From the human T2T-CHM13v2.0 reference genome, Homo sapiens: DNA of 64,000 nucleotides. This document shows, one piece after another, positions 9,076-34,918 of this stretch. The translations under genes and the position numbers were made by a program. The notes below the pieces were generated by a model. The model saw only the letters and a program-made list of their open reading frames with translations, was not told the DNA's origin and ran no database searches. The DNA is taken from the NCBI RefSeq assembly GCF_009914755.1, contig NC_060934.1; one strand, given 5' to 3'. Position 1 is the first letter of the stretch, and each line of letters opens with the position of its first letter.

Positions 9076-9164
9076 ATATCACCAGCAAAAAAAAAAGTTC
9101 CTAGAAATTCATCAAACCATGTGACACAAAACTCAAATGACATTTCACTTTGTTTTGATTTGTT

Positions 9165-9425
9165 TTGTTTGAGACAAGGTGTCACTCTGTCACCCAGGCT
9201 GAAGTGCGGTGGGGTGATCTGGGCTCACTGCAGGCTCTAACTCCTGGGCCCAAGTGATTCTCTCAACTCAGTCTCTCCAGTATCTGAGGCTACAGGCAGG
9301 CGCCACTAGGCCCAACTAATTTTTTTATGAAATTTTTTGCAAAGATGTCCAGGCTGGTCTTGAACTCCTGGACTCAAATGATCTGCCTACCTCAGCCCTC
9401 CAAAGTGCTGGGATTACAGGCTTGA
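9165..9425 (-). mobile_element. Alu (AluJ-like)
   Basis: antisense Alu: TTTGAGACAAGG ... CAAAGTGCTGGGATTACAGGC. Confidence 0.88.
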
Positions 9426-9501
9426 ACTGTGTAATTTCACGTGGCATGACACAGCACAATGATGAAAAGGAAGAAACCCTGTGGGTCCAGCGTATACTCA
9501 C

Positions 9502-9589
9502 ATGGGTGGATTGATGGCTGGGAAACCCAAGCAGGAGGAGCCAAAACAGCAGCCACTGGACCCGCATGTCCTGGTTTTCTCAGGGCCCC
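9502..9589 (-). pseudogene. orphan NPIPB-like signal-peptide exon (MRVQWLLFWLLLLGFPSHQSTH|gtgagt)
   Basis: acceptor CCTCCTCAG, 22 nt leader, ATG at 9567, 22 codons, phase-0 GTGAGT donor at 9501-9496; peptide closely resembles the NPIPB signal peptide as I recall it (MRVRWLLFWLL...GFISHQSTC). Confidence 0.75.
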
Positions 9590-9995
9590 CTGAGGAGGCC
9601 AGGACAGAGGTGAGGGTGGTTTAGGGCTGAGGGAGGAAAGGGGATGGGGACTGGGGGTGGGACTGCAGTTGGGGAGGGGGAGGGGAGGGAAAGGGATTGG
9701 GAGGGGAGGGAAGGCAAGGGGGACTGTGGGGGGCCTGGAGGAGCAGGGCGGTGGGGGGCTGGAGAAGAAGGAGGAGGAAGAAAAAGAAGGAACCCTGGGA
9801 AAGGATCCAGTTAAAACTAAGTCTTCAAGTGCTGGTGGAAGGTTCAGCTATAGGTCAGTGAAAAAGTCTATCAGCAAAACAGCAGGAGGAGTGGGGCAGG
9901 GGAGCAGGAGGCTCAGGAGCAGTTGGAGGGAGACCAGGGCTCTGGTTTCTACCAAACCTTCTCCTGTCTGGGCGCTACCTTAGCAACCCTGGGGC

Positions 9996-10001
9996 TTTAT
10001 A
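9996..10001 (-). promoter_or_regulatory. candidate TATA box upstream of the signal-peptide exon
   Basis: TATAAA on the minus strand in the context GGAAGTATAAAGCCCC; function not demonstrable from sequence. Confidence 0.3.
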
Positions 10002-12630
10002 CTTCCTCTCCACCAATCCTCGGTCCTGGTACCATAGTGCCTCACAGTGGGCATTCCATGTGATGCCCACATTCTTCCAACACCCCCTCCCCCACCTGAA
10101 CCCCTGATGCGCCATCCCAAAGACAGGTCCTCTCTGGAAACTTCGCAGACCTTCTGACTTCTCATCCTCCCCAACCAGCTCCCTGTCCCTGCTTCTGGGC
10201 TGATCTTTCCTTCCTGAGCTCCAAGTGTTCCTCATGGTCAGTCTTGGCTGCAAAACATGAAAAACAAATGATGGCAGGATGGCAGGAAGAACCTCATACA
10301 CAAGCAGAGTGGGAGGCTCCACAGCCCCCTCTCAGCAATTCATATACTAAGCAACAAAACATCAGTAGGATGTAGAAGGTCCAAATAGTAAACCATCTCC
10401 ATCACATTCATGTAGTCATCTATCCATCACCCTTGTATCTTGGGAATAAATGTTGGCGATATATTCATTTTAAGCACATATGGTACATTTACAAAAATTA
10501 ACCTGACTTATTTTGTTCATCAAGCAAATCTCAATATATTTCAGAGGAATCAAATCACATGTTTCTGATCATATAATTGTGCTAGAAGTCAACGATAAAA
10601 AGCTAACCAAAAATTCTTATATGCTTGGAAATTCAATGTGCCCTTATAAGTAAGATATAAACATAAGGAAGAACCCAAAATGAAACAAGACTGCCTTTGC
10701 ACTCAATGATAGAATCATAATATGGCAATAAAACATCTCCCTCTGGCCTGGGAATTCCACTTTGTGGCACAAGGTTGTGTGGTCCCAAATCATTTCTAAC
10801 CCACCTAGACATTTTAACATCTGAAATGGGGTGATGATGTCACTTATCTATGTCATCTTACTGCCTGTGACCATGGGCTTTAAATTTTGAACCCTAATGA
10901 GGGGAGGAAAACCAAGTTGACTCTCATGATTGACTTCCCAGGTATGACCAAGGAATCTGTGCATTTCAAGTGACGAAGTTCATCAGCTTCTCTCCTGGGA
11001 GATTTGGCCACAATACCCAGAGGGCCAGGCAGCACCAGGAGTAATGGGTGGGGAGTACCAAGCAATTGGGCAGGACCTAGGGGCCCGGTGACCAGGACAG
11101 ACCCCCACTGGCCATCACCTTTCCTGGTCCTGTCTTCAGCTAAACCTCCCAAAGGCCTTCTTCTGCCTGATTGCACAGAGTGTGCCCAAACTCACCCAGG
11201 CTTCTAGCAGCTTAAAACCACTTCTTTAAATCCCTTTACCATTTATTATGACATAAAGTTATTATAAACAGGAAATATTCCATTGAGGCTACAAATAGAA
11301 AGCCAATGCCTTTACCATAAATGGAAAGAAATCCTAAGAAACAAGCATGACAAAAACAAAACACAGATAACAAAACAATGAAATTAAATTATATTTGTAT
11401 ACTGTCACCTGCATAAAGACCCCCAGTTTCAGTTGTCTTGCTTGTAAAAGGAGAGACCAAGAGGGGGTTGAAGTCAGATCTGCACAAAAGTGAACGGCAC
11501 AGATTACCATAATGTCCGTGAAGGGTTGCTGGGGTCACCTTGATTATAGCCCAAGTAGACATAAGGAAAGGAGGGCAATATGAGCAGAGTTTGGGGCCTC
11601 AAACAGGGTAGGTTATTTATGCAGCCCAGGAAAGGCTCCCCAAAGCCAGTGTCAACCTCACAGGCAGGTCCCTCATGGAGGCAAGGCCAAGCACCTTGGA
11701 TTTGAGACCAGCTGTGCTGCTGACCAGCGGTGTGACCCTGGGCTGGTTTCCTTCCATACAATGGGAGTGCCAATGGCTACATGCAAAGACTGTCTGAGGA
11801 CAGGAGGAAGAAATCTGTTGAGCACCTGTGTACCTGAGTGTCAGCACCTCCCAAGGGCATCTGTCCTTCCAGAGCTGGCACCCTGGAAAGTTCTCAGATG
11901 CTAAAGGCAGTCATGATGATAACAGCAGTAAATCATCATTTACTGCTGATGAGGGAGGGCCAGTGGGCAGGACTCCTAGGTTCTGGATAGGAATGAAAGT
12001 CTGGGCACGCCTGGGGACAGCTGAGTGAGTCCTGTATCAGCAGTACAGGCAGGCACAGAGGCAGTAGATTCATCAGAGGTGGCAGGTGTGGGATGGTCTG
12101 ATAAGCAAGCATAGTCACCAAGCTGGCTGACCACTGCCCCCTCACAGAAGATGCCCTGTCCCTTGCCTCACATTCCAGCAGGGCAGAGGCTGGCACCTGG
12201 GGCCTCACAGAGCATCCCTCTGAGACTTCTGTGTCCTGGCCAAAAAATGGGCACTTGCGTCACCCAGCACTGACAGAACAAGGAGGAAGAATCAGGACCC
12301 AGGATGTTTTGGGGAAGTGTTTAGCACAGAAAAATGCTCAGAATACAAACACGACACAGGGGAACTGTTCATGTGGGAGCCAATATTTTATAACCTACAG
12401 CCCTAATCTGAGCACTCTCACCTGTGCAATCTGAAAGAAACAGGGGACTTGCAGGAAGGATAGTGCCTGGATTTAACTTGAAGTAAAATGTTGGAATTTT
12501 CACACTCCTGATATCCTTCCAAATCAACTCTTTCAATGCTCCCATCCTCACCACTATCATGTGGGGTAACTGAGGCAGTCAGGGATTTACTGACTCAATG
12601 TCATTCAGTCATTTCTGAGTTCACTGCTGA

Positions 12631-12706
12631 CTACATCTGACCAAACTTGAAGTTCCCGTTTAATCTTGCCAGTGACGGTTTTTGGCAGCTCTGGGACAAA
12701 CTCCAC
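12631..12706 (-). pseudogene. decayed ACSM terminal coding exon (VEFVPELPKTVTGKIKRE..[frameshift]..GQM*)
   Basis: ccag|GTGGAG acceptor; A10 motif PKTxTGK of acyl-CoA synthetases; GGT CAG ATG TAG out of frame (76 nt exon-to-stop); resembles ACSM1 C-terminus ...ELPKTITGKIERKELRKKETGQM*; 3'UTR-like sequence probably continues to ~12380. Confidence 0.85.
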
Positions 12707-14195
12707 CTGGCTGAAGATAAAGCAAATCTGTGGTGACTTAGTCCTGCTGTCATTTCCTACCAATCCCCTACTCTCCTCCTCTGCCCCTCCACAGTCTCCC
12801 ACACAGGCTAACACCATATGGTGGCCTTAATGGTGTCCACTGAGTATTTCAGCTTCTCCACGTGGGCCGTTTAAGTTGGGTGTAGCCATGTGATTTGCTT
12901 TGACCCAAAAGTGAGTGGAAGCGAAGCATGTCACCTTGAGGCAGAAGAGTTGGGAGCCATTGAGACTGGACACCCTCTTCTCTATCTCCGAGAGCACCTG
13001 ACAGGTTCCACATGGAGGCTGCTCCTTTACCCTGGCAGCAGGATAAGAAGATGTGGTGCACAGGGCCCAGGAGAGCCATGGTGGACGTGCAGCATGAGCA
13101 GGAAAACAACCTCCATTGTTTAAGACTGTTTGTTACCCACAGTGATATCTAGCCCATCCTAGTATGCATGCACCATCTATTCCACACTCTGTTAAGCAGA
13201 CTAGCCTACCATCAGAACATGAACTGCTCGTCAGACACACATAGGTTTCAGTTACAGCTCTTCCTCTTATTGACTGCAACCTCAGGCATTTAACTTTCAA
13301 TCTCTGAGCCTGTTTCACCTCTGTAACATGAGTTGGCTATACTATCTCACATTGTGGAGAGGATTAAATAAAATAAAAATGCACACAGAGCACTGAGCCC
13401 AGGGCCTGGCACACACAGTGAGTACTCAATCAACGTTAACCATGTAACTTCATAATGTGTATTGACTGTCAATATTTAGACAATGCCGCAAAGTACTACA
13501 AAAAAGGAAATGTTAACTATTTTTCAAATGTATTCTTCCAAACTTTATTTTCAAACAGATAGGATGAAACTATGTAAATTCTTTCATAGCCAGTGTTTTT
13601 CTCTTAATAGTATATTGCTAAAATATTTTTATCTCAAAAATAAGATTGTGTTTAAGATTATCATTTTAAATTACAAGTAATGCTCAATTTAATGAATAAT
13701 TTAATTATTACTATTGAACTTTTTGTAGATTGCACACAGCATTTAAAACAAATGAAAGAGAATTAAAAATAAGAATGTATTACATGTTATAAAATAACTA
13801 TGTTTTGTTAATTCTATTATTCATATAAGCACATATATATGCAATATGGAAGGTATTTTTATTGTAATGTTTAAAAATAGTTTAGAAGCTGCTTATTTGG
13901 ATTTCCCTTTTTGAATTTTGCAGGATTATAACTTTTTAAGTACTGTTGGGCACTTGTCTGGTTGTTTTTCTTTAGCTTAACATGCCAGCAATGATTCCTT
14001 TTGGGTTTCTGACACAAGACAGTGGTTTTCATCCACCCCATCCCTAAGCCACTCAGATGGAATGAAAAAGGAGGAAAAGGCCAGTACTGTGACTGCCTAA
14101 GCTTCCCCCAGCATGGCCACGCTATGAGACACAGGGCAGCTGAAAGTCAGAAACTGCTCAAGGGCACCAGGCCCCATCTGTCTGTGCTCACTCAC

Positions 14196-14315
14196 CTTCC
14201 TTTGGTACTTGCATGGGCCTGTCACTGACTTTATGTGCTGCTATAGCTCTTTGGTGAGCTGGCCCTGGTCATGGGACAGGAACTGTGGAGTCAGGACATT
14301 AGGGGGCTTCACCAC
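14196..14315 (-). pseudogene. decayed ACSM penultimate exon ([39 protein letters not shown])
   Basis: 120-nt phase 0/0 exon with tgcag| acceptor and |gtgagt donor; in-frame TAG at 14241-14243; homologous to ACSM1 [40 protein letters not shown] and to the NPIPB N-terminus. Confidence 0.9.
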
Positions 14316-14364
14316 CTGCAGAATGGGAACAGAGGCACATAATGAGTGCCAGCCTATTAGATAA

Positions 14365-16690
<2,326 letters not shown>

Positions 16691-17573
16691 TTAAAAGAAA
16701 ATGTTTGTTGAATGAGTGGAAAAACAAGGTGATGTTTGAGTCTACAGTGCTCAAAAGCATGGGGGCTTCAGAAAAGAACAAGATCAATTTCAAATCCCTG
16801 TACTTCAAATTTCTACTTCATGCCATGCAAAATTACTTTACCCCTCTTAACCTCAATTTCCTTCTGTGTGAAATGGGAAAAATAAAGTTTCATTTTTCAT
16901 TCAGTTTCTGTCAATATTTCATGAGATAAAACATATAAAACATCCAACTTGCTTAAATGTATGATTATTCCTGTCATTATTAGTAGTGGGATCAATTTCA
17001 CTATTATTGTCTATACAGTTCTGTGCCTAAAACCTACAAAACAAGAAAATGTTAACTCTAGAAAGTGCTAGTGATTTGTAATTTTTATATCATTAATTAT
17101 AACCCTGCTTAATCGCACAAGGCTTTTTATATGGCGGGTGCTCAATAAACACTTGCTGAATCAATGAATGTGTGCTCCGGAGCCACACTGTTTAGATTCT
17201 CTTCTCCTTTACCACTTATTAGCTGTGTGATCTGGGAAAGTTAATCCACCTCTTTATGTCTCTGTTTCCTTCTCTATAAAATATACATAATAAGAATCAC
17301 TAGCTTATTAGGTTGTTGCAAGGAATTAATAATTTGGCACATAATAGGGGCTTGTTAAATATTAGCTGTGATGATCTCCTTCCAAGTCTTCATTTTCAGA
17401 GCCACACACAAGGCTACAGTGCCAGCTTGTGACCCTAGAGTGTAAGTGCATATGATCGCCAACTATGTTCTCTTTCCACCCCAGGTCCAACACTGGGTAG
17501 TTAAGGACTGGAGGTTTCTCCTACATCTGCCTTCTTAGTGGCCACCTACAGACTTTTGTATTTTCCTCCTCAC

Positions 17574-17657
17574 ATCCCCGCAGATGGGGTCCAGGTTGCC
17601 CGACACAGCTGGGTGATCAACAGGGCAGTGACCACCTGTGCCAGCCCTATGAGGTAG
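17574..17657 (-). pseudogene. decayed ACSM exon (YLIGLAQVVTAL/DHPAVS-GNLDPICGD)
   Basis: cag|C TAC acceptor, GAT|gtgagg donor; homologous to ACSM (G)[33 protein letters not shown] with a frameshift and a deletion (84 nt vs ~100). Confidence 0.75.
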
Positions 17658-17835
17658 CTGAAGGATCACTGTTCCTTCCTTCTCAGGCTCTGGGCAGATG
17701 CCAGGGCTGGGGTGACACATACCCTCAAGTTTCTTGCTTTGGAGGGTCACATTTTCCCTTGGCAAGGTGGGTAAAGGTCAAAGGGAGCCAGAGACCTGTG
17801 ACCTGCCTGTGCCATGGGCCCAAACTATAAAGACC

Positions 17836-18099
17836 TGTCTTAGAGAGCCTCTCTCTGTTTGGTATCTAGGTTTATATATATATGGTGTCAGGAGTGGGAT
17901 TTGAACAAGATCACCATTGGAAGGAATCAGTGATTCCTGGAACCTATATGGAGCACACAGTTGGGCTCTTTGACCTTTTCACTTTCATGGCTCACCTTTC
18001 CTTTCCTGGTGAGTGTTCTCTTAGATTACGCCTTCTTCCTATTGGTACAGGCTTTTTCACTTGACTTAGGATTTGGTTGGGATAAGGCTGCCTTAGTAA
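17836..18099 (+). repeat. direct duplicate of the ERV LTR-end/PBS/leader junction (second copy 18925-19186)
   Basis: ~262-264 nt near-identical copies; perfect tRNA-Leu PBS TGGTGTCAGGAGTGGGAT at 17883-17900. Confidence 0.9.
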
Positions 18100-18124
18100 G
18101 CTTGCTAGCAGGTTTAAGTGTAAT

Positions 18125-18258
18125 AATGTTAAATGATGAGTTAATGGGTGCAGCACACCAACATGGCACATGTATACATATGTAACTAACCTGCACATTG
18201 TGCACATGTACCCTAAAACTTAAAGTATAATAAAAAATAAATAAAAATTAAAAAAAAC
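18125..18258 (+). mobile_element. short L1PA 3' end with poly-A
   Basis: GAGTTAATGGGTGCAGCACACC...CTTAAAGTATAATAAAA. Confidence 0.85.
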
Positions 18259-18284
18259 AGAGCCACTAATTTTAATCCATTTTT

Positions 18285-18565
18285 CTAAGTCAAGTAACTC
18301 AGGAATGGAAAACCAAACATCATATGTTCTCACTCACAAGTGGGAACTAAGCTATGAGGATGCAAAGGCATAAGAATAATACAATAAACTTTGGGGACTT
18401 GAGGGAAAGGGTGGGAGAAGGCTGAGGAACAAAACAACATATTGAGTACAGAGTACACTGCTCGGGTGATGGGTGCACCAAAATCTAAGAAATCACCACT
18501 AAAGAACTTATTCATGTAACCAAACACCACCTGTTCCCCCCCAAAACCTATTTAAATAAATTATT
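18285..18565 (+). mobile_element. L1PB-like 3' end
   Basis: GATGGGTGCACCAAAATC...CACTAAAGAACTTATTCATGTAACCAAACACCACCTGTTCCCC. Confidence 0.75.
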
Positions 18566-21374
18566 TTAAATGGAGTTACTAATTTTTTAAAAATTCTAAT
18601 AGAGCCAGCAAAGGCCATAAAGTTTTCATGCTTGTATGCCTAATAACAAAAATTATCACAGAAAGACTGCAAAACCCACAACCTTTTGCAAGTACACAAG
18701 AAATACTTCTACAAGGACATCTGCCCAGCAACTGCCTCTCCAACCTTGGACTGAACACACTTTCTATTGATCTTTGTAGCCAAGTATAATTATTTCCAAA
18801 ACAATTAAGTAATCCTCCTCATGTTATGTAAAAACCTGTGTCTTCCTTTACCTCTGTGAGTGCACACGTTTAATATGACAGGTGTATTCTCACTGCAACA
18901 CTTTATTCCCAAATAAGTATTTTTTGTCTTAGAGAGCCTCTCTCTGTTTGGTGTCTAGGTTTATATACACGGTGTCAGGAGTGGGATTTGAACAAGATCA
19001 CCATTGGAAGGAATCAGTGATTCCTGTAACCTGTGTGGAGCACACACTCGGGCTCTTTGACCTTTTCACTTTCATGGCTCACCTTTTCTTTCCTGGTGAG
19101 TGTTCTCTTAGATTAAGCCTTTTTCCTATTGGTAGAGGCTTTTTCACTTGACTTGGGATTTGGTTGGGATAATGCTGCCTTAGTAAAAGATCATACATCC
19201 ATCCAGGGATGATAAAATACTTTTTGTCTTTTCTGGTAGGTCCTTTCTGGTATAAAGACAAGTGTCCTTCTGGACTGAGTACTCTTAGTGTCTACAGAAT
19301 TTACATTCTGCCTGTATGTTTTCTCTGGTTTGCATGCCTAGTTTAATATTTAATTCTGTGTGCATGCCTATGTCAAAATTTTTGCAAACACTTTTATCTT
19401 GCTTTCTTTTGATTTGGTTGGACTCTTTTCCCTTGCAGAATGACTAGTTAAAAGTCACCAGTGAAGTCACCACCATCTAAAATACCCATGTAAACTCCTG
19501 ACATTCCCTGATAGGATTTATAGAATTTTCTTTGCTCTCAAGAGATTAACAAGGAACTGAGTGGTATTCTCAAACATTAAGGGATGACAGGTTTTCTGAC
19601 ACTCTAGACAGCTACATATTACAGCCTGCTCTTGTGCACATTTCAAAACTGTGGGCAAATCACATTAAGAAATGTTCAGTGTTCAAATGGTCATTATTCA
19701 AAAACCTACAAGTATAGAGTTAACAGAGTCTTCTACGTTCTCTATCTCTGTTTTTTTCCTGCCTACTCTGAATCAGCTGACTTTTCTAGTGTTGTTAATA
19801 TAAAACTCATTGCTTATGGCATTCCAGCTAAAAATTTTTAAAAATAAGTCTTAAAGGGCTTTTAAGTTAATGGCTTTACAAGTTACAATGGCTCCATGGT
19901 GAGCAACAACCTAGATACCTTTATAAATACACATTTAGATTTGTCTTACAATTATGTACAGTGATAAAACACTTAACTTAAAAATTAATAATCTAAAAGA
20001 AAAGGAACTAGGTAAGTGTTTACAAAAGTTAGGCTCTTAGATCAAACAGGTCAAAATCTTAAGCTCAGAGCAATAATATGTTATCTCTGTCCAGCAAAAA
20101 AATGTTTGCTTTTGTTGCCACACAGAAGCCAAAATGTAAAAGCGGAGAGAAAAAAGAAACTACTAAAATTCTTTTGCCCACATTTGCTAACCAAGCAAAC
20201 TAAATCAGCAAACAAAAGATAGACTGGTTACTAATTCAATGCTACTTGGAGATTTTGTTCTTTCTTACACTATTCCACCAGTCCTAGTTAAAATGTACAC
20301 ATTGACAATTTAACCATAAATTTATTAGAAACTGAACAAAGGCAGAGAAAAGGGTGAAAGGCTTTTTTTTTTTTTTTTTTTTTTTTACTCAAACTGCTGT
20401 GAAAACTGCTTTACCCAAAATTTTGGTCCACAGCCTTCACCAGATTATCTATTAGGGCAAATAAAGTTTAGCCTCTATATGTAAACAGGTCCCAATTTTG
20501 TCAGAAATATAATTTGGGTCCAAATGTTTTATCAGCCAGTGAGTTTGTATTACTATCTCACAACCAAAATTCTAAAATAAAAGCGATGAGATTTTTATTT
20601 TTTGTGTGTATACATATGTGTTTAGATGTGTTCATATAGAAGCACATGTATCATGTTACATATTATGTCTACATGGTGAAATCTGGCATAGTCAGCCAGA
20701 AATTCCTTAAAGATAAATGAGTACTCATATAAAGTACAAAATATATAATAATTACCAAATGCCTTTTAGTTCACATGACTTAAATAAATCTTTTTATTAT
20801 TATTTTATTTTTATTATTTGATTTTATTTATTTACTGAAGCTCATTTTTAAATTATTGGTAAAAATAAAAATGTCTTTAGAATTGTCAGCATATATTTCT
20901 GCCTGGGTTTACTGGTTACTTTAATATTTGTCTCCGATAGATATTTTAAGGTGTCAGGGTTTCACATGAAGGTTATACAACTGTAAGCCCAGGCTAAAAC
21001 AAAGTGATTTTTGTATAATTATTTGATAAGCAAAACTAACTTAATACTGTTGCTTTAATAAAAACAGCTGTATCTTCTGAGTTGTTGGGAACATGCTCCT
21101 ACATTTAACTTCAAGGTCCTTAATCAGGTGAACATTGATATTCACAAGCTGTAAAAATGATTAACAGGGAAATAACTTGAAATGAGATCGAGTTTTGTCT
21201 AATATCCCAGTTCTCACTGGTAATCCAGGTAAATGTTAGAAAATTAAATGTAAATGAGAAAAATGTCTATAAAGTTTTCATGTAACTTGATGTCTTAAAG
21301 TTACATTAAATAATAGATACTAATTAAATGTGTAGGTCATTTCCAAATAAGATTTTAAAGTTATGTTCTAGGGG

Positions 21375-21725
<351 letters not shown>

Positions 21726-21814
21726 TTAGGGAATATGTTTGTAAAAATTATAAAATGGTTCTTATCTATAAAATACTGATAGGTGACAGACAATTTAAAA
21801 TTTCTTACTTTCAG

Positions 21815-22165
<351 letters not shown>

Positions 22166-24599
22166 TTAAAATTTTTAATTAGTACATATAATTCTATATA
22201 TACAATGTGCCAAAAAATAAGGCGTTCTTGGTGAGAAAAAAATTATTAGAAAGTCATAAAAAATACATTTTATTGAGAAAAAGAATATTTTTATCGAATT
22301 TGGGGATCATTTAAAAGTTGTTTCACAGTAGCTAGAAAAGAACTAGTAAGTAGGAGACAGATGTAAAGAAAGTTATGGATATTAAGATGTAATTTTGGTA
22401 ACAGAAGTCTTTCTAAAGATTGAAATTTGACATTAAAATACATTAATACAAAACAACAAAATAAGTTGGTCCCCTATGTTAGAATGACAGTTTGCTTACT
22501 GATTTGCTCTTAGTAAAATTTTAAGAGGTTTTATTTTTAATTCTAAAATCTTATTTAATAGAAGATTTAAACTAGTTCTAATTCTTCCTGAGATCTAACT
22601 AACTTCCCTAGTTTCAGATTGGAAATGCGGTGTCTTTCTTTCAGAATGGCCATTTCATTTCTAGAGGTAACATTTTTCTTTTTCAAACTTCTCAGATTTA
22701 TATCCGAAATTCAACTTTCTCTGTACCACATTGCAGGTCATAAACCACTGCCTTCTGTTTTTTCCCCCTTTAAAAAGGTGTATCTTTTTGCATGGCCACA
22801 ATGGTAACAGTGGTAGCTCTGTCTTTCAACATTTTTGTCAACTCCTGTAACATTTTTTCTCTGGTTCTAGTTCTGCTGTTATGGCCTGACACTGAAATGG
22901 TTAGCATGAAGGTCTGGAAAACCAATGTTTTCCTCCAACATAACTTGAATCTGTACTTTTGGCTTTTCTTCCTATGTCTAAATTGTTGTTCCATGTAACC
23001 AGGAAACTTCCCATGCTGTTACTAACAGCCATGTATTCCCTGGCTCATGGTACTAATTTCCTTGTTTACATTCCTCTAAAATACAGTGTACACTCATATC
23101 CCTGTACATACTCTTCCTGTGTCTGATTAAATTCAAGTACCCTTTTTGATTACTCAGGAAAACTAAGCTTTAAAAGGGTTCGAGTTTTCATATCCACATA
23201 ACTTTCTGTATAGCTTTTAAGTCTCTGGTTAAATGACTATTCTTTTAACAGTGACCTGTGATTCTGTTTTGATCAAATGTTTTCAATCTTTGACAGGTTT
23301 CCCCAGAGTCAAAAATCCTAAATTAAGTCTTAAAATTAACTTCGGGACTGTTCAGCTGGGTCCCTGGAGAGTCTAAAGAATGGATCTCTCACCTTGTAGA
23401 GATATTAAATTATTAGATTTGGTAGACTGTATGAGCGGGCATTGTCAAATGTTGTGATACTGCATGGGAGAGCATTGTCAAATTATGTGATATTAGATCC
23501 CACTTCAGTTACATTTATAGGTATGTTATTGACACGCATGTTCCAAAAATTATATAAACTTATAAAAATTTAATGATTCATAATTTTGATTGTTACGCTA
23601 AATATTTGCTAAAGTTACATTTGTATAAATATGTTATTAATGCATTCTGAAGATTGTATGAAATTTATAAAAGCCTGGTGGTCCTGATGTGATGCTGTCA
23701 GTCATGATTCTGGTTATTGTCTTAACATGCTGCACGTAAGAGAAGTAACTAAATTTCCTTGTCAATTGGGAACTTTCATCAGATTTTCATCATAGCTATT
23801 CTGTTTCCATCATCCACAGTTCTGCTTTGAATTCGAAAAATATTTGCGATCAGCGATAGTCCAAATTTGCTTTTCATGGAAAAAACTCTTAACAGGTCCT
23901 CTTGAACACAGGTTTCTGATAACTTTCAGATCAATAAACTACCCCAGCCTTTACCGCTATGCAATATAGGCATGTAAGAAACTTGTACTTATACCCTTTA
24001 AATATATTAAAACAAATGTTTTAAAAAAATAAACTAAACACAAATTCCTAGAACTCTAATAAACTTAAGGGTTCAAAAAACTGCTAAGCAAGATCAAGCA
24101 AAACAAAAAATCTATGAAATTAAGATAATATTTTTATAACTTTTATTTAAAACACTGTTGGTTGTATTCTAGATTTAAGAAAGGTTTCTCACAGATGTTA
24201 TCTATAATTTACATCAGTTTGGTAAAGCACACTTGTAAACAAAGGTGGAAGCATTTGGTTTTTCTCCCTAGTTGATCCCTCCAAAATTTGGAAACTATTC
24301 ACAAATATTCTAATTTTCGTTTACATATCGGCTCTTTATAAGCAGGATAAAATCGGAAATATTGGTTATATTATCAAGGCTTTGACTGAAACATCATATT
24401 TAAGAATATGCATAAAATGCCCGGATTCAAGAGTTTCCAGCCTTACAGTGAGGGGAGAAAAATGTCACTTCCTGGCGGACCTGACAACCTTAGAACTTTT
24501 CGGGGAGAAGCTTGGCAGGGAGGGGACCTGGCAGCTGCTCCTGGGCAGGAACCAGAGGGCAAAGTCCGTGGCGACCCTCGGGCCTGGCGGGGACCTTAC

Positions 24600-25332
24600 G
24601 CTTCCCGGCGTCTTTCCCTCTGCCCCGCCGGCTGCTGAGGGAGCGGCGGCCGCCCTGCGCCTGGAGGTCGTTCCCTCGCCTCCTCCGGGCCGCGGGTAGC
24701 GAGAGGCGGCGGCGGCCGGAGCCGGTGTGGGCGGCCTGAGGCGAAAGCCCGGCCGGCCCCTAGGGGAATGAAACAACCACCGGCTACCAGAGCAACAACG
24801 GCCTCCGCGGCTGCACCGCCGACTTCCCGGAGGAGCGAAGGCGCCCCGCAAAAACACGCCGCAGAGCGGAACCCGGGCCCCGCCGCCCCAGCAGGGGGCA
24901 GCAGCGACGCAGACAGGAAGCCCAGGTCCTGAGCGCTGGACACCTCGGCGGCCTCCGCGACCAATGAGCGCCACACCAACCTCCAGGCGGCGCTCCCACC
25001 GCACCTGCCGCCGCCGCCGCCCCGGGGCGAGAACTGCGCCGTCGGCCCTGCCACGCTGACCCGTGGGGCCCCGGCCGCCGCCCCAGGGTGACGAGGAGGA
25101 GCAGGACGGGGCCCCAGAGAAGGGCAAGAGCTCAGAGCTCGGGCTCCAGTGCCAGGAAAAGGCCAGGAGCAGAAGATGGAGAGATGGAGAAGCAGCAGGT
25201 GCGGAGAAGCGGCGTTCCACGGGCTGGGTCAGCATCCGCTGGCGGATCTTAGATGACTTTGAAGATGAGGAAGCAGGGCAGAAAGAGCGGAAACGAGAAG
25301 GTGCAATGACACAACGGAACCCAATGCAGAAT
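24600..25332 (+). pseudogene. PAWRP1: PAWR (Par-4) pseudogene, 5' portion only, CpG-island-like
   Basis: frames give TGYQSNNGLRGCTADFPEE (cf. MATGGYRTSSGLGGSTTDFLEE), PPPQGDEEEQDGAPEKGKSS, EKRRSTG and LDDFEDEEAGQKERKREGAMTQRNPMQN; frameshifts present, start codon lost, homology stops at ~codon 173; symbol from recall of a PAWR pseudogene at this locus. Confidence 0.85.
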
Positions 25333-25577
25333 CCAGCCCCAGGACTCAAACGCTGGCTTTAATTCCAACTCACACCCCGTGCCCCTAATCAGAGAGGATC
25401 AGGGGAGATGGAGGACCCAAGGAACCCTGGCACCTGAAGGGTGGGAATCTGAGGCCAAGACTGATTGTGGGAAATTGTGGGAATCAGGAAAGGAGGAAGT
25501 GAGGCAGAATGGGGGGACGGCGGGGGTGGGGGGATGGCGGGGAGCTGGGCTAGGAAGGATTAAAAATCAGAAGCTCA

Positions 25578-25828
<251 letters not shown>

Positions 25829-26232
25829 GTTAGAACCTTAGGAAGGATCCAGAGGGGAACTGTCCTTAGGAAGGTGCATGCTGGGGATGAAGGAATTGGT
25901 TTTAAGACTCAGGAAGTGAGGGCAAGGGAGAGACGAGTGTTGGGGGTGCAGTGGGGTGCTAATGCAGCAGCCAAGCAGAAGACTGGAGGAAAACAGAGCC
26001 CTTCTCCTCCAACTCCAGCTGCTCCTCTGAGTCCCAGGCCACCTGCTCCTGTGTCTGCCAACCTACTGACATGTCTCCCAGCCCTGCTGGAATGCTGTTC
26101 CTCCTGATCTCTGCCCTGCCCCAGACCTTTCACTAACCCCACCACCCCCACTGTCCAGGTCCTACCACCCCACTGCCCCGACCATAGCCTGCCCCTATCC
26201 CAGATGCCTCTCCTTCCAGCCTCTTGCCCTAG

Positions 26233-26320
26233 GTGACACAAAGGGGACCTGGACATGCAGGTGAAGAGGGTGTTCTTCTGGGTCCTCCTGCTCAAGTATC
26301 CCGCTCATGCAGTTATGAGT
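26233..26320 (+). other. diverged paralogue of the signal-peptide exon (MQVKRVFFWVLLLKYPAHAVMS|gtgagt)
   Basis: CCCTAG acceptor (26230-26232), 22 nt leader ending GGAC, ATG 26255, 22 open codons, GTGAGT donor at 26321: same architecture as 9502-9589(-); upstream flank 25540-26030 aligns by eye to ~10190-9910(-). Confidence 0.7.
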
Positions 26321-26589
26321 GTGAGTAAATGTTGGATATGACACAGATTCTATTTCTCAAGCTGTTTCACACTGTGGTTTACCTAACAGTGTTTTTGTGG
26401 AATCATCTATGGGGATTTGGTCCTCCCTGCAGACCTCAGTGCAGATTTCTTGAGCAGCCTACAGGGGCTCTGGCCCCACCTGTCCACACCAAGTTCTGGG
26501 TCCTGCATGCCCTGCTTGGCCCAAATACAGCAAGGTTGACAGGATGGAAAGCTGAAAATGGTGACTTATAATATCGAAAAGTAAGGATT

Positions 26590-27560
26590 TCACGGCCCAG
26601 TGAAACAGAATGGAGAACCCAGAAATAAATCCTTGCATTTACAACCAACTCATTTTTGACCAAGGCACCAGGAACATACCTTGGGAAACAGATGGTCTCT
26701 TCAATAAATGGTACTGGGAAAATGAGACACGTGAAGAATAAAACTAGACTTCTATGCCTCATCATATATAAAAATCAAATCAAAATGAATTAAAAACTTA
26801 CATGTAGGAAACTATGAAACTACTAGAAGAAAACATAGGGGAAATACTTTAGAACACTGGTCTAGGCAAAGATTTCCTGAGTAAGACCTCAAAAGCACGG
26901 GTAACCAATGCAAAAATTGATAAATAGAATTACATCAAGCTAAAAAGCTTCTTCACATCAATAAAAATAAAAATAAAGTGAAGAGACAACCCACAGAATG
27001 GGAGAAAAATTTTCCAAACTATTCATCCAACAAGGGATCACTAACAAGAATACGTAAGAACTCAAAAACAAAAATTCCAAATAATCCAATTTAAAAATGG
27101 GCAAAAGATTTCAATAGACATTTCCCAAGAGAAGATACACAAATGGCCAACAGTTATATGCAAACATGTTTAACATCACTAATCATCAGATAAATCCAAA
27201 TCAAAACCACAATAAAATATAATTTAACCTCAATTAAAATGGCAATTGTCAAAAACTCAGAAAATAACAAATGCTGAAAAGGACACAGAGAAATGGGAGT
27301 GCTCAAACACTCTTCGTAGGAACATAAAATAGTTTATCCACTATGGAAAACTGCATGGAGGTTCCTCAAAGAACTAAAAATAGAACTATCATATGATTCA
27401 GCAATCCCACTGCTGGGTATATGCCTACAAGAAAGAAAATCAGTATGTCGAAGAGACATCTGCACTCCCAGTTTATTGCAGCACTATTCACAACAGCCAA
27501 AATATGAAATCAACCTAAGTATCAACGGATGAACGGATAAAGTGTGGTACATATATATGA
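26590..27560 (+). mobile_element. old L1 (L1MA/L1PB) ORF2-3' fragment
   Basis: diverged L1 ORF2 C-terminal sequence (CCCAGAAATAAATCC...CAATCCCACTGCTGGGTATATG). Confidence 0.8.
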
Positions 27561-28614
27561 AAAAAAAAGGATTTGTGAATATACTAAAAGCCATTGAATT
27601 GTATGCCTGAAATGGGGAAGTTGTATGCTATATGAGTTCTATTTCAATAAAGTTGTTTTTTAAAACATAAGGAATCTTATTTAATAATCATCATGGGCAT
27701 TCTTGGAAGCCCTCTGCAAGATCCTGTTTCAAGTTCTGCAAGTTTGGGGTCCAACCTGTGTGAACCTTGTTTCCCTATGAGTACATTATTTATGTTTGTG
27801 AAAGCTTGACAGCTCCAAGAACACTAGTACTTAATCGTTGGTTTTAGCACTAGTCTGTGTAACCAAATACCACCTGTACCCCCTATAACTTACGGAAAAA
27901 AAGTGAAATGTCTTTTGCACTCTGTTATTTCGAGTTTGTTGATTTTTAGCAACATCTGGGTCATCCCTTTTCTTCTTCTCTGGCAGGCTGCCCCTAGGGA
28001 TTCCCTGTTCAGCCGGTTTGATGAGAGCCCTAAGAAACCCATCAGATACCAAAATAAATGGCTATATTCTGCTGGAATGTTTGTAGTGGGGGAATCACAT
28101 ATGACCAGGAGGTGAATTATTATTGTCATTTCCTTTGTGAAATGTGTCACTTGTCATCTCTTGATTTACCCAAGGCAGGGAGAGAGAAAGAGAAAAAGGG
28201 AGTTGATCAGACACTTCCCATTAAGATAAGTATTAATAAATTTCTTCTGATCACCATGGCCCAGATACCTATGGAGGGATCTGGAAAGGTCCAGTGTTCA
28301 GGAACAACCCTATCATTTAGGCAGTGTTAGGCCAATTGAATACTTCCAATCAAAAGAACCTATTCTGTTTCTTTCCTTTGAGTCTTTTAAAAGGGCAAAT
28401 GTCTTGAAAACGTTTATTCTTAGAGTTTTGGGGGTTTTGTTGTTGGTTGTTGTTGTTGCTTCTATCTTGGCTGCATTTTTCATAGGTCATCTAACCTCTC
28501 TTTTCCTAGCATCTTTGAGCATTTGGATAAATTAAGCTGTCTTGCATTTCCCACCTCCACCCTTGCTCATGGCCGCATTCGCCTCTCAAAATTCCCCTGA
28601 GCCTTCTGAGGACT

Positions 28615-28875
28615 TTTTTTTTAACTTTTATTTTAGATACAGGGAGTACATGTGCAGGTTTGTTACATGGGTATACTGCAATTAAGTAGTGAGCATAGTA
28701 CTCAGTAGGTCGTTTTTCAACCCACGCTCCTCTCCCTCCTTCCCCACTCTAGTACACTGTGTCTACTGTTCCCATGTTTATGTCAATGGATGCTCTATGT
28801 TTAGCTCCCACTTATAAGTGAGAAAGTGCGGTATTAGGTTTTTCTATTCCTGTATTAATTTGCTTAGGATTATGA
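28615..28875 (-). mobile_element. old L1P 3' end
   Basis: poly-T then CATGTGCAGGTTTGTTACATGGG ... CCCACTTATAAGTGAGA. Confidence 0.8.
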
Positions 28876-31789
28876 CTGAGACCAACTCTTATCCTTCACG
28901 CTGTTAAGTAGCTCTGATCTTCAAGATTAGCCAGAAGGAATCTGTACACTCTGCAAGTGTTTCAGTGGCACTTTGTTTATACTGCTCATGGGGCATTTGA
29001 GTTCATTGCCTTAAATTGCAGGTAATTTGTTATAAATTTGCCTCCTCTAGAAAGTCACAGGTTTTGTAAGGGAAAGAACTGGGTCTTGTCTGTTGACCTA
29101 TCCTATAGGATATTTCCGTATTGGCAGCAGCTCATATTTCCATGTATTTTGTGCATCACTTGAGCAGAATTTGTCCCACTGAAATAATACCTACATGTCT
29201 TTTTAAATCAAATTAGTAATTCCTTGCTGAGGTTGATCTATATCAGTACAGTTAAACACTGGATAAGGGGTTCAACATAAAGATTACTTCCAATGTTGAC
29301 AGTCTAAGATTCTATAAAATTATTTGTGAGGGTGCAAGAAATGTGAAACTACCACATGTATAAGAATGTATAAGAATGGAGTGTACCACATGTGGTAGAA
29401 TGTGTAGTACGTGGTAGAATGTATGGCACACTGTTTGACACTACACTATGTGGTATATCATAAAAATGTGACACTACCACATGTAAAGAATGCTATGACC
29501 TGTGGTCTCAAAGGTTAAAAAGGTTTATATCTCACCCTTCTTCATATATTTTTTATTTCTTTCCCTTTCCATATTCTCTTATTTAAGTTTTTTCATAGAG
29601 AAAAGTATATTTTCTCTCCGTCTCCCCTCTCATTTTCAAGCCTGATACCTTAGGAAATTTTAAATTCTCTCTTCTTAGCTTTCAAATTAATTGTTTGTGT
29701 ATCTTCGCTCTGCTGTACTTTTCAGTTTCTCAGAGTTCAGACAACCACCATGAGACCTGCAGCTTTTGTGGCCCTGTTGGATCTAATCTAGGTAGGAGAG
29801 TCCACTATGGTTATCTGTGTCCAGACAGTTGCCAGATGGAACCAGAGTGACCATGACTGGGAATGCTTTCCCAAGTAGTGACAAAATGGCCTTTGTCCTT
29901 CTTGTCCATTTGATCCCCATCTTTAATCATTGTGCTCAGAGCTACTGCTCCCATTCAGAAAGTGGCTGCTCAAGGACAGCATATTTTTCCCAAAAGTACA
30001 CACTTTACATGCCTTAGCAGTGAGTGCTGAAGATAAGTGTTTTAAGAGTTCAGAGAGGTTTTATATGCAAGAAACTAATGCTTGAATGTGGATCAGTATA
30101 CATTATGAGTTTACTGTCTCCTAAAATACCTGTAAAATCTAGTCTTTGTAAAACAGTATGTTTGTCTTTTTTCTGATGATAATATGTTCCAGAAATTTTA
30201 TATCTTTTTTCATAAGAATTTTATAGCTGCTATTAATTGGTTTAGATGCAATACTATGAAACATGAAGGTGAATTCTTAGTGGTGATTATTTGGGATTGT
30301 GTTTCTAATAAGCTTCTATTTTCAGAGTTTTAATCGTATAATATACAAAAATCCTCTAGTATGAAGTCTTTTATATACTTAAAAATCTTACATTATGTGC
30401 CTTGTTTCAAAATGAAAGTGAATGTTGAACAAAAACTGAAATGGTATTAGAAGCATGGATTAATGGAATAATCCCAGTACAACTATAATAATGGCCACCT
30501 GTTTTTTTGTTACATCTATAATGTATTTCTATATTATTTTTTCAATATAAAATTTTGATCATTATTTGCATTTTTAAAATTTTTCCATTCTTTCATACTG
30601 GTTGGATGTATATTGGGATATTTCCCAAAGGATTTAACCCAGACAATTCATGTATGTTCAAAAGAAAACCTAGGCCCTCTTTTTGTTTCCCATCAAGTTA
30701 CTAACATGAACACTAATTTATGTTTGAAATCAAAGCAAACTTGTAAAATAACCTTTTAGTAAAGACCTCAGTGAGTAAGACAACTGTATAATCTCAATTT
30801 TAAAACTTCAATGTACACATTCCTTCTATTAAGAAAGAAAGAAATCCTTTCTATCAAAAAAAAGCAATAGCATATATTTAGTAGTCAGTGGGCTTTTTTG
30901 CATACTGTTAGCGGTATCGTGAATTCTCACAGGCATCCTAAAAGGCAACTGAATAATAAAATATATCTTCGAAGGCTTTAAAATATTCATATCCTTTTTT
31001 CAGTATAGTTTCATCTCTGGCAATCTACCCTAGCAAAATAACCAGTTGTGCATTCAAAGAACTTATAGGAGGACATTATTTATTATTGTGAAAGTATACA
31101 ATAATCTAAATTATACGTAGTAGGAGAATTATTAAATTATTTTACACCCTTAAGGTGGACTATTAGGCAGTTCTTAAAATTCACATGTTTCAAAGACATT
31201 TTAGGATACAGACACTAATCTTGAGCTAATGTCAGATAAAAGAAAGCAGAAACCAGGAGTTTCTATATAGTATAATTAAAAGTATATATGCTCTGCCTGT
31301 AGAGTGAAAAACTGCTACATAAAAATACCACAAAATACTGTAAACACCTATTCACAGGGACCAAGATAATTTTCCTTTCCTTTTCCCAATACATGTCTAT
31401 TACCAAAATTTCTAGATTGATTATGTAGTATTATGCTCAGAAAATACCATTTTCTTTGAAAATGCAGATTATATAATGTTTTAAATCTTTGATTTTTACT
31501 CATTTGAATGCATTTTTGGTATAGAGTTTATCTTTGGACTTGGTATTACATTTTTCTGATTTCTTATCACTTTTAAAAAATGAAAATAGCTTATTAATTT
31601 TTAAGTTATATCAGTAATAGCCATCACCATAATCAAGATATGGGATATTTTCATAACCCTCAAAATGTACTCTTTGTCCCTCTTTGCAATCCAACTGCTT
31701 CTCCCCTGTTCCAGGCAACTAATTATCTGTTCTCTGTCACTATGGAATTCTTTTGCCTTTGATAAAATTTTACATAAATATGATACACT

Positions 31790-32400
31790 GTATTAGCAAA
31801 ATGAAGAACAAAAACCATATGATCATCTCAGATGTAGAAAAAGCATTGACAAATTCAACATCCTTCACATTAAACACTCTCAACAAATTACAAATAGAAG
31901 GTACATATATGTACCTCAAAATAATAAAACCCATATATACAAGCCTACAGCTAACATTACAGTCAACTAGCTTTTCCCTAAGATCAGGAACAAGACAATA
32001 ATGCCCACTCTCACCATTGCTATCAACATAACACTGTTAATTTTAACCAGAGCAACTAGGCAAGAAAAAGAAATACAAGGCCTCCAAATCAAAATGAAAG
32101 AAGTTAGATTGCCAATGTTTGTAGAAAACATGATCTTATATAGAGAAAACCTAAAGACTTCACCAAAAACCTGTTAGAACTAATAAACCAATTCAGTAAT
32201 GCTGCAGGAGATAAAACTAACATACAAAAATTAGTGGTGTTTCTATACACTAAAAACAAACTATCTGAAAAAGAAATCAAGGAAACCATTCCACTTACAA
32301 GAGCATGAAAAATAAATTAAGATATTTAGAAATAAATTTAACCACAGAGCTGAAGGACTTGTAAACTGAAAATCATAAAACATTTATAAAAGAAATAGAG
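31790..32400 (+). mobile_element. old L1M ORF2 (RT region) fragment
   Basis: KNKNHMII..., SLRSGTRQ peptides. Confidence 0.75.
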
Positions 32401-34864: not shown

Positions 34865-34918
34865 AGACTTTCACCTACACTACCTTGAGTACGAGACTTT
34901 CACCTACACTACCTCGAG
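34865..34918. repeat. two-copy tandem repeat, 29-nt period, in the ACSM6 upstream region
   Basis: AGACTTTCACCTACACTACCT(T/C)GAG at 34865-34889 and 34894-34918. Confidence 0.9.

What the first reader, a model, noticed from the sequence alone, without database searches (positions are those of the whole stretch)
9470..14315. Possible source or sister locus of the NPIP (LCR16a) 5' exons on a different chromosome
Seen: an ACSM exon reading [39 protein letters not shown], followed 4.6 kb downstream on the same strand by the signal exon MRVQWLLFWLLLLGFPSHQSTH. Recalled: NPIPB proteins start either [40 protein letters not shown] or MRVRWLLFWLL..GFISHQSTC. The window shares DQGQL and PC with NPIPB where ACSM1 has DKDQL and PY. 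Both alternative NPIP first exons therefore co-occur here, with no NPIP core exons that I could find. Inference: the NPIP 5' module may derive from this decayed ACSM6 3' end (or a common ancestor) rather than directly from ACSM1.
Basis: partly seen in the sequence, partly recalled or inferred. Interest (0 to 1): 0.8.

Follow-up and report, generated by a model that had tools for sequence, protein, structure and literature searches.

The report
Old chr10 relative of NPIP's start
Upstream of ACSM6 on chromosome 10 lies a decayed, roughly 18-kb relative of the front end of the fast-evolving NPIP genes, which changes the published account of where NPIP's alternative first exons came from.

Summary
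Window 9089-27107 is collinear with the 5' end and upstream flank of the LCR16a/NPIP copies. It carries an ACSM exon-12-like exon (TAG at codon 25), an ACSM last-exon-like piece and an intact MRVQ... exon. No NPIP core exon was found.

In an ML tree the window falls outside a clade of 15 human LCR16a copies (100/100). It joins them and a chr11p15.4 fragment, apart from ACSM1 (100/100). K2P is 0.13-0.16 to LCR16a and 0.24-0.37 to ACSM1.

The fragment is not ACSM6's own 3' end. It belongs to the ACSM1 lineage.

ACSM1's own 3' flank holds an MRVR-like exon, the same Alu and NPIP-core remnants. Chr10q22.3 holds a similar pairing. So the ACSM 3' end next to an NPIP-like gene looks like an ancestral unit, not an independent exon capture.

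The module is mosaic in age. The ACSM part is older. The MRVQ part diverged from LCR16a, the ACSM1 flank and chr11 at about one time.

The window also keeps an older second copy of exon 1 with its intron, in full here and cut short in the chr16 copies. Direction (chr10 to chr16 or the reverse) is unresolved with human sequence alone.

The parts
14196..14315 (-). ACSM1-lineage exon-12-like exon: 40 codons with TAG at codon 25. It is the homolog of the NPIPB 'MVKL' start exon. Its acceptor at 14315 is the boundary of an exon of the predicted lncRNA LOC107984257.
   Evidence: hub annotation for the lncRNA exon
12605..12706 (-). ACSM last-exon-like ORF (VEFVPELPKTVTGKIKRE...), with one codon missing relative to the ACSM1 locus.
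   Evidence: (AMP-binding_C E=0.018, below cut-off)
9502..9589 (-). NPIP-family exon 1 homolog. The MRVQWLLFWLLLLGFPSHQSTH ORF is 9567..9502 with an intact GTGAGT donor. The span equals an exon of the predicted lncRNA.
9149..9425 (.). Antisense Alu at the same site, with the same flanks, in the window, LCR16a copies and the ACSM1 3' flank.
   Evidence: alignment
9089..11362 (-). Younger block (Y1 plus the exon-1 region Z). It is about equidistant from LCR16a, the ACSM1 flank, chr11:3.39 Mb and chr10q22.3.
11415..14366 (-). Older block: Y2, ACSM 3'UTR and exon 13, intron 12 and exon 12. It is close to LCR16a (about 13% mismatch) and far from ACSM1 and chr10q22.3 (19-23%).
14367..16690 (.). Insertion private to chr10 (L1-like; an ORF at 16518-16817 hits reverse transcriptase).
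16691..17837 (-). Homolog of ACSM1 intron 11. K2P is 0.15-0.17 to LCR16a, 0.13-0.15 to chr11:3.43 Mb and 0.32-0.37 to ACSM1.
17838..23088 (.). Repeats private to chr10. They replace about 880 bases that LCR16a keeps, about 280 of them ACSM1-homologous.
23089..27107 (+). Block shared with the upstream flank of some LCR16a copies (77-89% identity). It includes the PAWRP1 retro-pseudogene region. Homology ends at 27107, inside a repeat that runs on to about 27555 in the window.
26255..26320 (+). Older second copy of NPIP-type exon 1 (MQVKRVFFWVLLLKYPAHAVMS, then GTGAGT), head to head with the MRVQ exon.
27897..28606 (+). Old homolog of NPIP-like intron 1 as found downstream of ACSM1. It includes the exon-1 flank without the Alu. 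K2P is 0.31.
29660..30294 (+). A further collinear piece of the old intron-1 homolog. K2P is 0.34 to the chr10q22.3 copy.

Best explanation
Window 9089-27107 is a non-coding, decayed paralog of the 5' end and upstream flank of the LCR16a/NPIP duplicon. It is not part of ACSM6.

It contains:
- ACSM1-lineage intron 11, exon 12 (now with a stop) and exon 13 with its 3'UTR.
- About 2.8 kb further along the same strand, an NPIP-family first exon (MRVQ..., signal-peptide-like, ORF and donor intact).
- Head to head with these, an older copy of that first exon with its intron.

The pairing 'ACSM 3' exons, then NPIP exon 1' is the ancestral layout of the NPIP family. The functional ACSM1 gene still has an NPIP-like pseudogene directly downstream, and a chr10q22.3 paralog keeps the same layout. 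NPIP's MVKL exon was therefore carried along as the upstream neighbour, not captured by a separate exon duplication.

The version in LCR16a belongs to an older ACSM1-3' lineage, shared only with this window and a chr11p15.4 fragment. The window split from the LCR16a lineage before the human copies diversified, and probably before the New World/Old World monkey split.

Today the region most likely acts only as exons and splice sites of the predicted lncRNA LOC107984257.

Shown: homology, extents, tree topology, mosaic divergence. Inferred: ages, order of events, lncRNA role.
For: 1. Collinear homology to LCR16a loci runs over window 9087-14366, 16691-17837 and 23089-27107.

2. An ML tree on 1582 columns of intron 11 plus exon 12 gave two clades, each 100/100: {ACSM1, chr22, chr10:80.4/81.1} and {window, chr11:3.43, 15 LCR16a copies}. 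The 15 LCR16a copies are monophyletic at 100/100, excluding the window.

3. K2P from the window is 0.135-0.155 to LCR16a over 10175-17837. To ACSM1 it is 0.236-0.333 in the blocks, and 0.367 over the whole intron-11 segment.

4. Downstream of the ACSM1 3' end:
- An MRVR-like exon (ATA in place of ATG) with the same Alu at the same site.
- Then intron-1-type sequence.
- Then Pfam NPIP matches at C16:20549101-238 (E 1.7e-5) and C16:20547366-515 (E 3e-13), on the same strand.

5. Chr10:80.39/81.10 has ACSM exons 12-13 followed by NPIP-like exons with open frames. A database protein labelled 'Pan pan...' (P0003) joins that ACSM exon directly to NPIP-like exon 2.

6. ACSM6 exon 3 is 42-50% identical to the other ACSM paralogs.

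7. A tamarin protein (P0002) shares at least 4 derived residues of the last ACSM exon with LCR16a. At those positions the window and ACSM1 keep the other state.

8. The lncRNA exon boundaries 14315 and 9502-9589 coincide with the exon-12 acceptor and the MRVQ exon (hub annotation).
Against: - In the exon-1 region (1035 columns) the window is no closer to LCR16a than to the ACSM1 flank or chr11:3.39. The tree is a near star and the window+LCR16a grouping gets only 89/74. Mismatch there is 17.0% window-ACSM1 against 19.0% window-LCR16a. The two 'first exons' therefore do not share one simple history.
- Interlocus gene conversion, reported for NPIP in the 2025 preprint (figure legend seen), could blur all distances.
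- Only human copies were available, so nesting within a wider primate NPIP clade is untested.
- Naming C16:20.55-20.62 Mb as ACSM1 rests on gene order (recalled), the peptide, and the preprint's statement. No annotation call confirms it.
- The lncRNA model is a prediction.
Confidence: 0.75

Rival explanations
1. Donor reading (the strong form of the first reader's idea): the chr10q23.33 locus, or its direct ancestor, donated the ACSM-exon module with its upstream flank to the NPIP gene at 16p13.1.
For: - The window holds the most complete version. The old exon-1 copy runs on into old intron-1 homologs (27897-28606, 29660-30294) that are absent from the LCR16a copies. A genome search for that intron piece gave 5 of 5 candidate loci scored, none of them LCR16a.
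- The repeat at 26809-27555 is continuous in the window. In the two chr16 copies that reach it, it is cut at 27107 and abuts a duplicon of chr19/chr15 type.
- The old pieces (K2P 0.29-0.34) and the ACSM part (0.32-0.37 in intron 11) are of similar age relative to the ACSM1 locus. That fits one old duplicate resident here.
Against: - LCR16a keeps about 880 bases between 17837 and 23089 that the window lacks, about 280 of them ACSM1-homologous.
- LCR16a may also keep about 12 more bases at the 9089 end (a weak 27-base alignment).
- LCR16a's exon-1 region, distal intron 1 and exon 2 look like a native member of the ACSM1-flank NPIP-like radiation (K2P 0.15-0.24). The MRVR exon need not have come from chr10.
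- The chr19-type junction may be a later event. The copy at 16p13.1 (14.74 Mb) stops even earlier, near window 25889.
Confidence: 0.4
2. Derivative reading: the chr10 block is a partial copy of the ancestral LCR16a 5' region (chr16 to chr10). It was cut just after NPIP exon 1, and the chr16 copies later lost the far upstream part.
For: - LCR16a is a documented driver of duplicative transposition (PMC7419210, passages seen).
- Homology ends right after exon 1 (9089), as expected for the end of a copied segment.
- The window lacks sequence that LCR16a retains.
Against: - It needs every surviving human LCR16a copy to have lost the old intron-1 homolog.
- It leaves the landing 20 kb upstream of another ACSM gene as a coincidence.
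- The window lies outside all 15 human copies with a long stem (0.072), so any such copying would have to be old.
Confidence: 0.3
3. Published reading: the 40-residue MVKL exon arose by an independent duplication of exon 12 of ACSM1 into NPIP.
For: - The exon is of ACSM1 type. Its protein and DNA match ACSM1 better than ACSM2A/B in flank extent.
- The preprint 10.1101/2025.02.04.636496 states this (passages seen; its Fig. S3 itself was not visible).
Against: - The homology is not one exon. It is a block with intron 11, exon 13, the 3'UTR and NPIP exon 1.
- ACSM1 sits in the other clade at 100/100.
- An NPIP-like pseudogene lies next to ACSM1 itself.
Confidence: 0.05
4. One reading: the fragment is the decayed 3' end of ACSM6.
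For: - It lies 20 kb from ACSM6.
- ACSM6's annotated coding part within the window sums to 400 codons (my sum of the hub coordinates). Its annotated model may be shorter than other ACSM genes; that is recalled, not tested.
Against: - ACSM6 exon 3 is only 42-50% identical to all paralogs. The fragment matches ACSM1 at 30 of 40 residues in exon 12 and aligns to ACSM1 in introns and UTR.
- It lies on the opposite strand, upstream of ACSM6.
Confidence: 0.04

Closest known systems
LCR16a core duplicon / NPIP (morpheus) gene family, human chr16 and chr18
   Same: Collinear homology over the NPIP 5' exons (MVKL-type ACSM exon, MRVR-type exon 1), the introns between them and several kb of upstream flank. 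The same Alu and the same PAWR retro-pseudogene region are shared.
   Different: Only 77-89% identical. No NPIP core exons. Single copy, and outside the clade of human copies. The ACSM exon carries a stop and starts with GTG, not ATG.
ACSM1 3' end and its downstream flank (C16:20.547-20.557 Mb in this assembly)
   Same: Same order: intron 11, exon 12, exon 13 with 3'UTR, then an MRVR-like exon with the same Alu. The intron-1 piece downstream of ACSM1 matches the window's old copy.
   Different: K2P is 0.24-0.37 in the ACSM part. About 1 kb of intron 12 and the 1.9-kb Y block are absent at ACSM1, and a 1.06-kb block present at ACSM1 is absent here. ACSM1 is a whole gene; here only the 3' piece exists.
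NPIP-like loci at chr10q22.3 (C10:80.38-80.40 and 81.10-81.12 Mb)
   Same: ACSM exons 12-13 followed by the Y block and NPIP-family sequence. The Y1 block differs from the window by only 10.4%.
   Different: Their ACSM part groups with ACSM1 (DKDQL type). They lack the exon-1 region but keep intron 1 and NPIP-like core exons with open frames.
chr11p15.4 fragments (C11:3.43 Mb and 3.39 Mb)
   Same: The 3.43 Mb piece has intron 11 and exon 12 of the same DQGQ lineage, K2P 0.13-0.15 to the window.
   Different: It stops just after exon 12. A separate piece 38 kb away, of ACSM1-flank type, carries the exon-1 region, intron 1 and one NPIP-like exon.

Membership tests
LCR16a / NPIP core duplicon | Encodes NPIP core exons (Pfam NPIP, PF06409) | tested here: not met
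   150 matches genome-wide (162 candidates, 150 scored), none on C10:96.0-96.1 Mb.
LCR16a / NPIP core duplicon | Homology to the NPIP 5' exons and the sequence between them | tested here: met
   collinear 80-87% identity over window 9087-14366 and 16691-17837.
LCR16a / NPIP core duplicon | Falls inside the clade of LCR16a copies | tested here: not met
   the 15 human copies are monophyletic at 100/100, excluding the window. Non-human copies were not testable.
[quoted passage not shown] | AMP-binding_C domain above the Pfam cut-off and an open frame | tested here: not met
   the last exon scores E=0.018, 16.4 bits against a 24.5-bit cut-off, and exon 12 gives no hit. TAG at codon 25. No further AMP-binding exon was found among 131 further minus-strand ORFs spanning 16.5-35.3 kb (two repeat insertions left out). 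This is a low-sensitivity test.
ACSM1-lineage 3' fragment | Alignable to ACSM1 in non-coding parts as well as in exons 12-13 | tested here: met
   intron 11 at 65-72%, 3'UTR and exon 13 at 72-78%, exon 12 at 81%.
ACSM6 own 3' end | Divergence from other ACSM genes like that of ACSM6's other exons | tested here: not met
   ACSM6 exon 3 is 42-50% identical to its paralogs; the fragment's exon 12 matches ACSM1 at 30 of 40 residues.
Processed (retro) pseudogene | Introns absent | tested here: not met
   Intron 12 and part of intron 11 are retained.

The most novel reading that the evidence does not exclude
The window preserves the resident copy of an old (pre-Alu) duplicate of 'ACSM1 3' end plus NPIP-like 5' end'. 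Around the time of the anthropoid ancestor this duplicate recombined with a younger NPIP-like copy and handed NPIP at 16p13.1 a new upstream flank and its MVKL-type exon. The graft could then be tested as a step in the expression change and later hyper-expansion of LCR16a.
Probability: 0.35. Interest if true: 0.7.

Novelty: new member of a known kind. Interest (0 to 1): 0.55.

Why it matters
NPIP/LCR16a is the textbook 'core duplicon'. It drives the segmental-duplication architecture of chromosome 16p and is among the fastest-evolving ape gene families. How it acquired its alternative promoters and first exons is still being worked out.

This locus, together with the NPIP-like remnant next to ACSM1, gives outgroups for the 5' part of the duplicon. 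It replaces 'one exon copied from ACSM1' with 'an ACSM1-3'/NPIP unit duplicated repeatedly, with an older and a younger layer'. It also makes the donor question testable on existing primate and mammal assemblies.

The searches I made of the library (NPIP+ACSM, ACSM6, NPIP+ACSM6, LCR16a+ACSM1) found no paper that links NPIP to chr10q23.33. The two NPIP papers contain no mention of chr10 in their main text. Their supplements and figures were not seen.

Tried and rejected
The loci could not be cut for the same reason. I then worked from loci already held and from five small fetches.
- Whole-genome searches with window 26800-36800 and 27890-30400 were swamped by interspersed repeats and told nothing.
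- The protein database search with the 40-residue exon found only one tamarin protein. Human and ape ACSM1 or NPIPB entries did not appear, so no cross-species ACSM6/ACSM1 C-terminus comparison was possible.
- The Pfam scan of minus-strand ORFs for more ACSM exons found none, but it is too insensitive to count as absence.
- I considered that ACSM6 plus the old exon-1 copy came from one old block duplication of the chr16 ACSM cluster. I rejected this because ACSM6 is far more diverged than the non-coding homology allows.
- I considered a simple in-place inversion of the ACSM part relative to the old copy. It is not supported: block 23000-26300 holds no old Y or ACSM homolog.
- I first read the tamarin/LCR16a likeness in the last exon as a shared frameshift. 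On re-reading it is shared substitutions.
Full report
**What is there**

On the minus strand the window has three exon-like pieces.
- An exon with a proper acceptor and donor at 14315..14196. It reads like the penultimate coding exon of an ACSM gene, with TAG at codon 25.
- A last-exon-like ORF at 12706..12605 (Pfam AMP-binding_C E=0.018, below cut-off).
- A 22-codon ORF, MRVQWLLFWLLLLGFPSHQSTH, at 9567..9502, followed by GTGAGT.

The hub annotation places exons of the predicted lncRNA LOC107984257 at 11409-14315 and 9502-9589. The ACSM acceptor and the MRVQ exon therefore serve as splice sites in that model.

**Relatives in the same genome**

The 281-base exon query found 23 places:
- itself;
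- 14 LCR16a-type loci on chr16 and one on chr18 (85-87%);
- chr11:3.43 Mb (85%);
- chr10:80.40 and 81.10 Mb (77-78%);
- chr22:17.72 Mb (75%);
- C16:20555008 (81%, exon and near flanks only);
- two exon-only hits.

I read the last three as ACSM1, ACSM2A and ACSM2B. This rests on gene order (recalled), on the peptide [41 protein letters not shown], and on the paralog hits.

A 5.3-kb query showed that homology to LCR16a loci is continuous, not exon-only. Local BLAST of the whole window against the fetched loci extended it to 9087-14366, 16691-17837 and 23089-27107. It is interrupted by insertions private to chr10: 14367-16690, whose edge ORF hits reverse transcriptase, and 17838-23088. The PAWRP1 retro-pseudogene region (24162-25578) is shared with three chr16 copies at 77-79%.

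No NPIP core exon exists here: 0 of 150 genome-wide Pfam NPIP matches fall on chr10:96.0-96.1 Mb.

**Tree and distances**

On intron 11 plus exon 12 (1582 columns), IQ-TREE gave two clades, each 100/100: {ACSM1, chr22, chr10:80.4/81.1} and {window, chr11:3.43, 15 LCR16a copies}. The 15 LCR16a copies form their own 100/100 clade. The window, chr11 and that clade form an unresolved trichotomy. Two exon-only rows (ACSM2A/B) were dropped by the program for too few columns.

K2P values:
- window to LCR16a: 0.135-0.155 over 10175-17837;
- window to chr11:3.43: 0.13-0.15;
- window to ACSM1: 0.236 (exon 12), 0.255 (3'UTR) and 0.32-0.37 (intron 11).

Peptide signatures agree. DQGQ is shared by the window, LCR16a, chr11 and a tamarin protein. 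DKDQ is shared by ACSM1, chr22 and chr10q22.3.

**Not ACSM6's own end**

ACSM6 exon 3 is 42-50% identical to the six other ACSM paralog hits, so ACSM6 is a deep paralog. The fragment's exon 12 matches ACSM1 at 30 of 40 residues and still aligns to ACSM1 in intron and UTR. It is an ACSM1-lineage piece that sits, inverted, 20 kb upstream of ACSM6.

**ACSM1 has an NPIP-like neighbour**

A 3-kb fetch just downstream of the ACSM1 3' end (L066) aligns to window 9094-10162. That stretch includes the MRVQ exon, which at ACSM1 reads IPAWWLLFWLLLQGFSSHQPTH with ATA for ATG. It also includes an antisense Alu at exactly the same site, with the same flanks, in ACSM1, the window and LCR16a.

Further downstream of ACSM1, on the same strand, are Pfam NPIP matches at C16:20549101-238 and C16:20547366-515.

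The chr10q22.3 loci have ACSM exons 12-13, then NPIP-like exons with open frames. A database protein labelled 'Pan pan...' joins that ACSM exon straight to NPIP-like exon 2.

So 'ACSM 3' end, NPIP exon 1, NPIP core' is a unit that was duplicated as a whole. The only place where its ACSM part belongs to a complete gene is ACSM1. [quoted passage not shown] I saw that passage; its Fig. S3 was not visible.

**Mosaic age**

The block is not of one age.
- Window against ACSM1 locus: 168/986 mismatches (17.0%) in the exon-1 region, against 539/2299 (23.4%) in the ACSM part (p=5e-5).
- Window against LCR16a: the opposite trend, 19.0% against 13.6% (p=8e-5).
- Window against chr10q22.3: 10.4% in 10175-11362, but 19.5% from 11415 through exon 12 (p=8e-12). 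Over the same three blocks, window against LCR16a stays at 12.2-13.3%.

In the exon-1 region an ML tree of ACSM1-flank, chr11:3.39, window and 12 LCR16a copies is nearly a star. The internal branch is about 0.01, with support 89/74. I gave that tree 12 of the 26 LCR16a-type copies held.

My reading is that an older ACSM1-3' duplicate (window about 11415-17837 and its LCR16a and chr11 counterparts) is joined at about 11363-11415 to a younger piece carrying NPIP exon 1 and the Alu.

**An older copy on the other strand**

Window 26255-26320 (+) encodes MQVKRVFFWVLLLKYPAHAVMS followed by GTGAGT. It is 63% identical to the MRVQ exon region.

It is followed, after an L1-like insertion, by the Alu-free exon-1 flank and by intron-1 homologs at 27897-28606 and 29660-30294. 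Their K2P is 0.29-0.34 to the ACSM1-flank and chr10q22.3 copies, which differ from each other by only 0.11.

A genome search with the ACSM1-flank intron piece found 5 of 5 candidate loci: ACSM1, chr11:3.39, the two chr10q22.3 loci and this window. None is an LCR16a copy.

LCR16a copies share the left part of this old block up to window 27107. There the two copies that reach it abut a duplicon of chr19/chr15 type.

**Direction**

For chr10 as donor:
- The window has the most complete and continuous version.
- The old pieces and the ACSM part are of similar age.

For chr16 as donor:
- LCR16a keeps about 880 bases that the window has lost.
- LCR16a's exon-1 region, distal intron 1 and exon 2 align to other NPIP-like copies at K2P 0.15-0.24, so they look native.
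- Homology stops right after exon 1 in the window.

Both loci lose the ancestral exon-1 to intron-1 continuity within about 15 bases of the same point. Neither reading explains this cleanly. I leave direction open: about 0.4 for chr10 as donor, 0.3 for the reverse, and the rest for a lost third locus or gene conversion.

**Age**

A tamarin protein (P0002) carries the ACSM pieces. At 4 or more positions of the last exon it shares the LCR16a state where the window and ACSM1 keep the other. The window/LCR16a split therefore probably predates the New World/Old World monkey split. Converting K2P to years would rest on assumed rates and was not computed.

**Literature**

I searched NPIP+ACSM (21 papers), ACSM6 (43), NPIP+ACSM6 (1, a gene list) and LCR16a+ACSM1 (3 versions of one preprint). 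For PMC7419210 and the 2025 preprint I read passages only. Neither main text mentions chr10. Supplements and figures were not seen.

Noticed in passing
outside the window: C10:80379658-80386771 (-) and C10:81111788-81118901 (+); L070: NPIP-like exons with open frames lie downstream of ACSM exon-12/13 fragments at chr10q22.3. They score higher against Pfam NPIP (75-78 bits) than the LCR16a copies do for the same exons. A database protein (P0003) splices the ACSM exon to them.
   Followed up: partly
outside the window: C16:20540302-20549238; L066: NPIP-like pseudogene remnants lie directly downstream of the ACSM1 3' end. One piece (model positions 1-51) is on the opposite strand, 7 kb further on.
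   Followed up: partly
window 24162-25578: The PAWRP1 retro-pseudogene region is shared with three chr16 LCR16a-upstream copies at 77-79%. The retro-insertion therefore predates the chr10/chr16 split.
   Followed up: partly
outside the window: C11:3428014-3431289 (L016) and C11:3386600-3393700 (L069, L071): Two separate fragments lie 38 kb apart on chr11p15.4. One has the window's ACSM lineage (intron 11 plus exon 12 only). The other is of ACSM1-flank type, with the exon-1 region, intron 1 and one NPIP-like exon.
   Followed up: partly
outside the window: C16:29027496-29028070 and C16:28648176-28648750 (L055, L056): The upstream end of two LCR16a blocks abuts a 563-base segment that is 86-88% identical to chr19:0.57 Mb and chr15:28.0/30.1 Mb. 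This is a duplication mosaic junction.
   Followed up: no
outside the window: C1:221879297, C7:65596495-65596895, C23:50372578-50376621: Further weak-to-moderate Pfam NPIP matches lie outside chr16, 18, 10 and 11. They suggest older dispersed NPIP-like relics.
   Followed up: no
NPIPA-type loci, e.g. L012/L047 (C16:14.75 Mb): This NPIPA-type copy (C16:14.75 Mb) lacks the equivalent of window 11363-13624, which holds the last ACSM exon and 3'UTR; Alus sit in that position. NPIPB-type and chr18 copies keep it.
   Followed up: no
window 29352-29492 (-): An ORF with a sub-threshold Pfam hit to the CENP-F Rb-binding domain (E 0.00096, 19 bits against a cut-off of 21). Probably chance.
   Followed up: no
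window 43135-43344 (+): ACSM6 exon 3 is closest to the chr12:7.32 Mb paralog (50%). It is 42-47% identical to the five chr16 ACSM genes.
   Followed up: no
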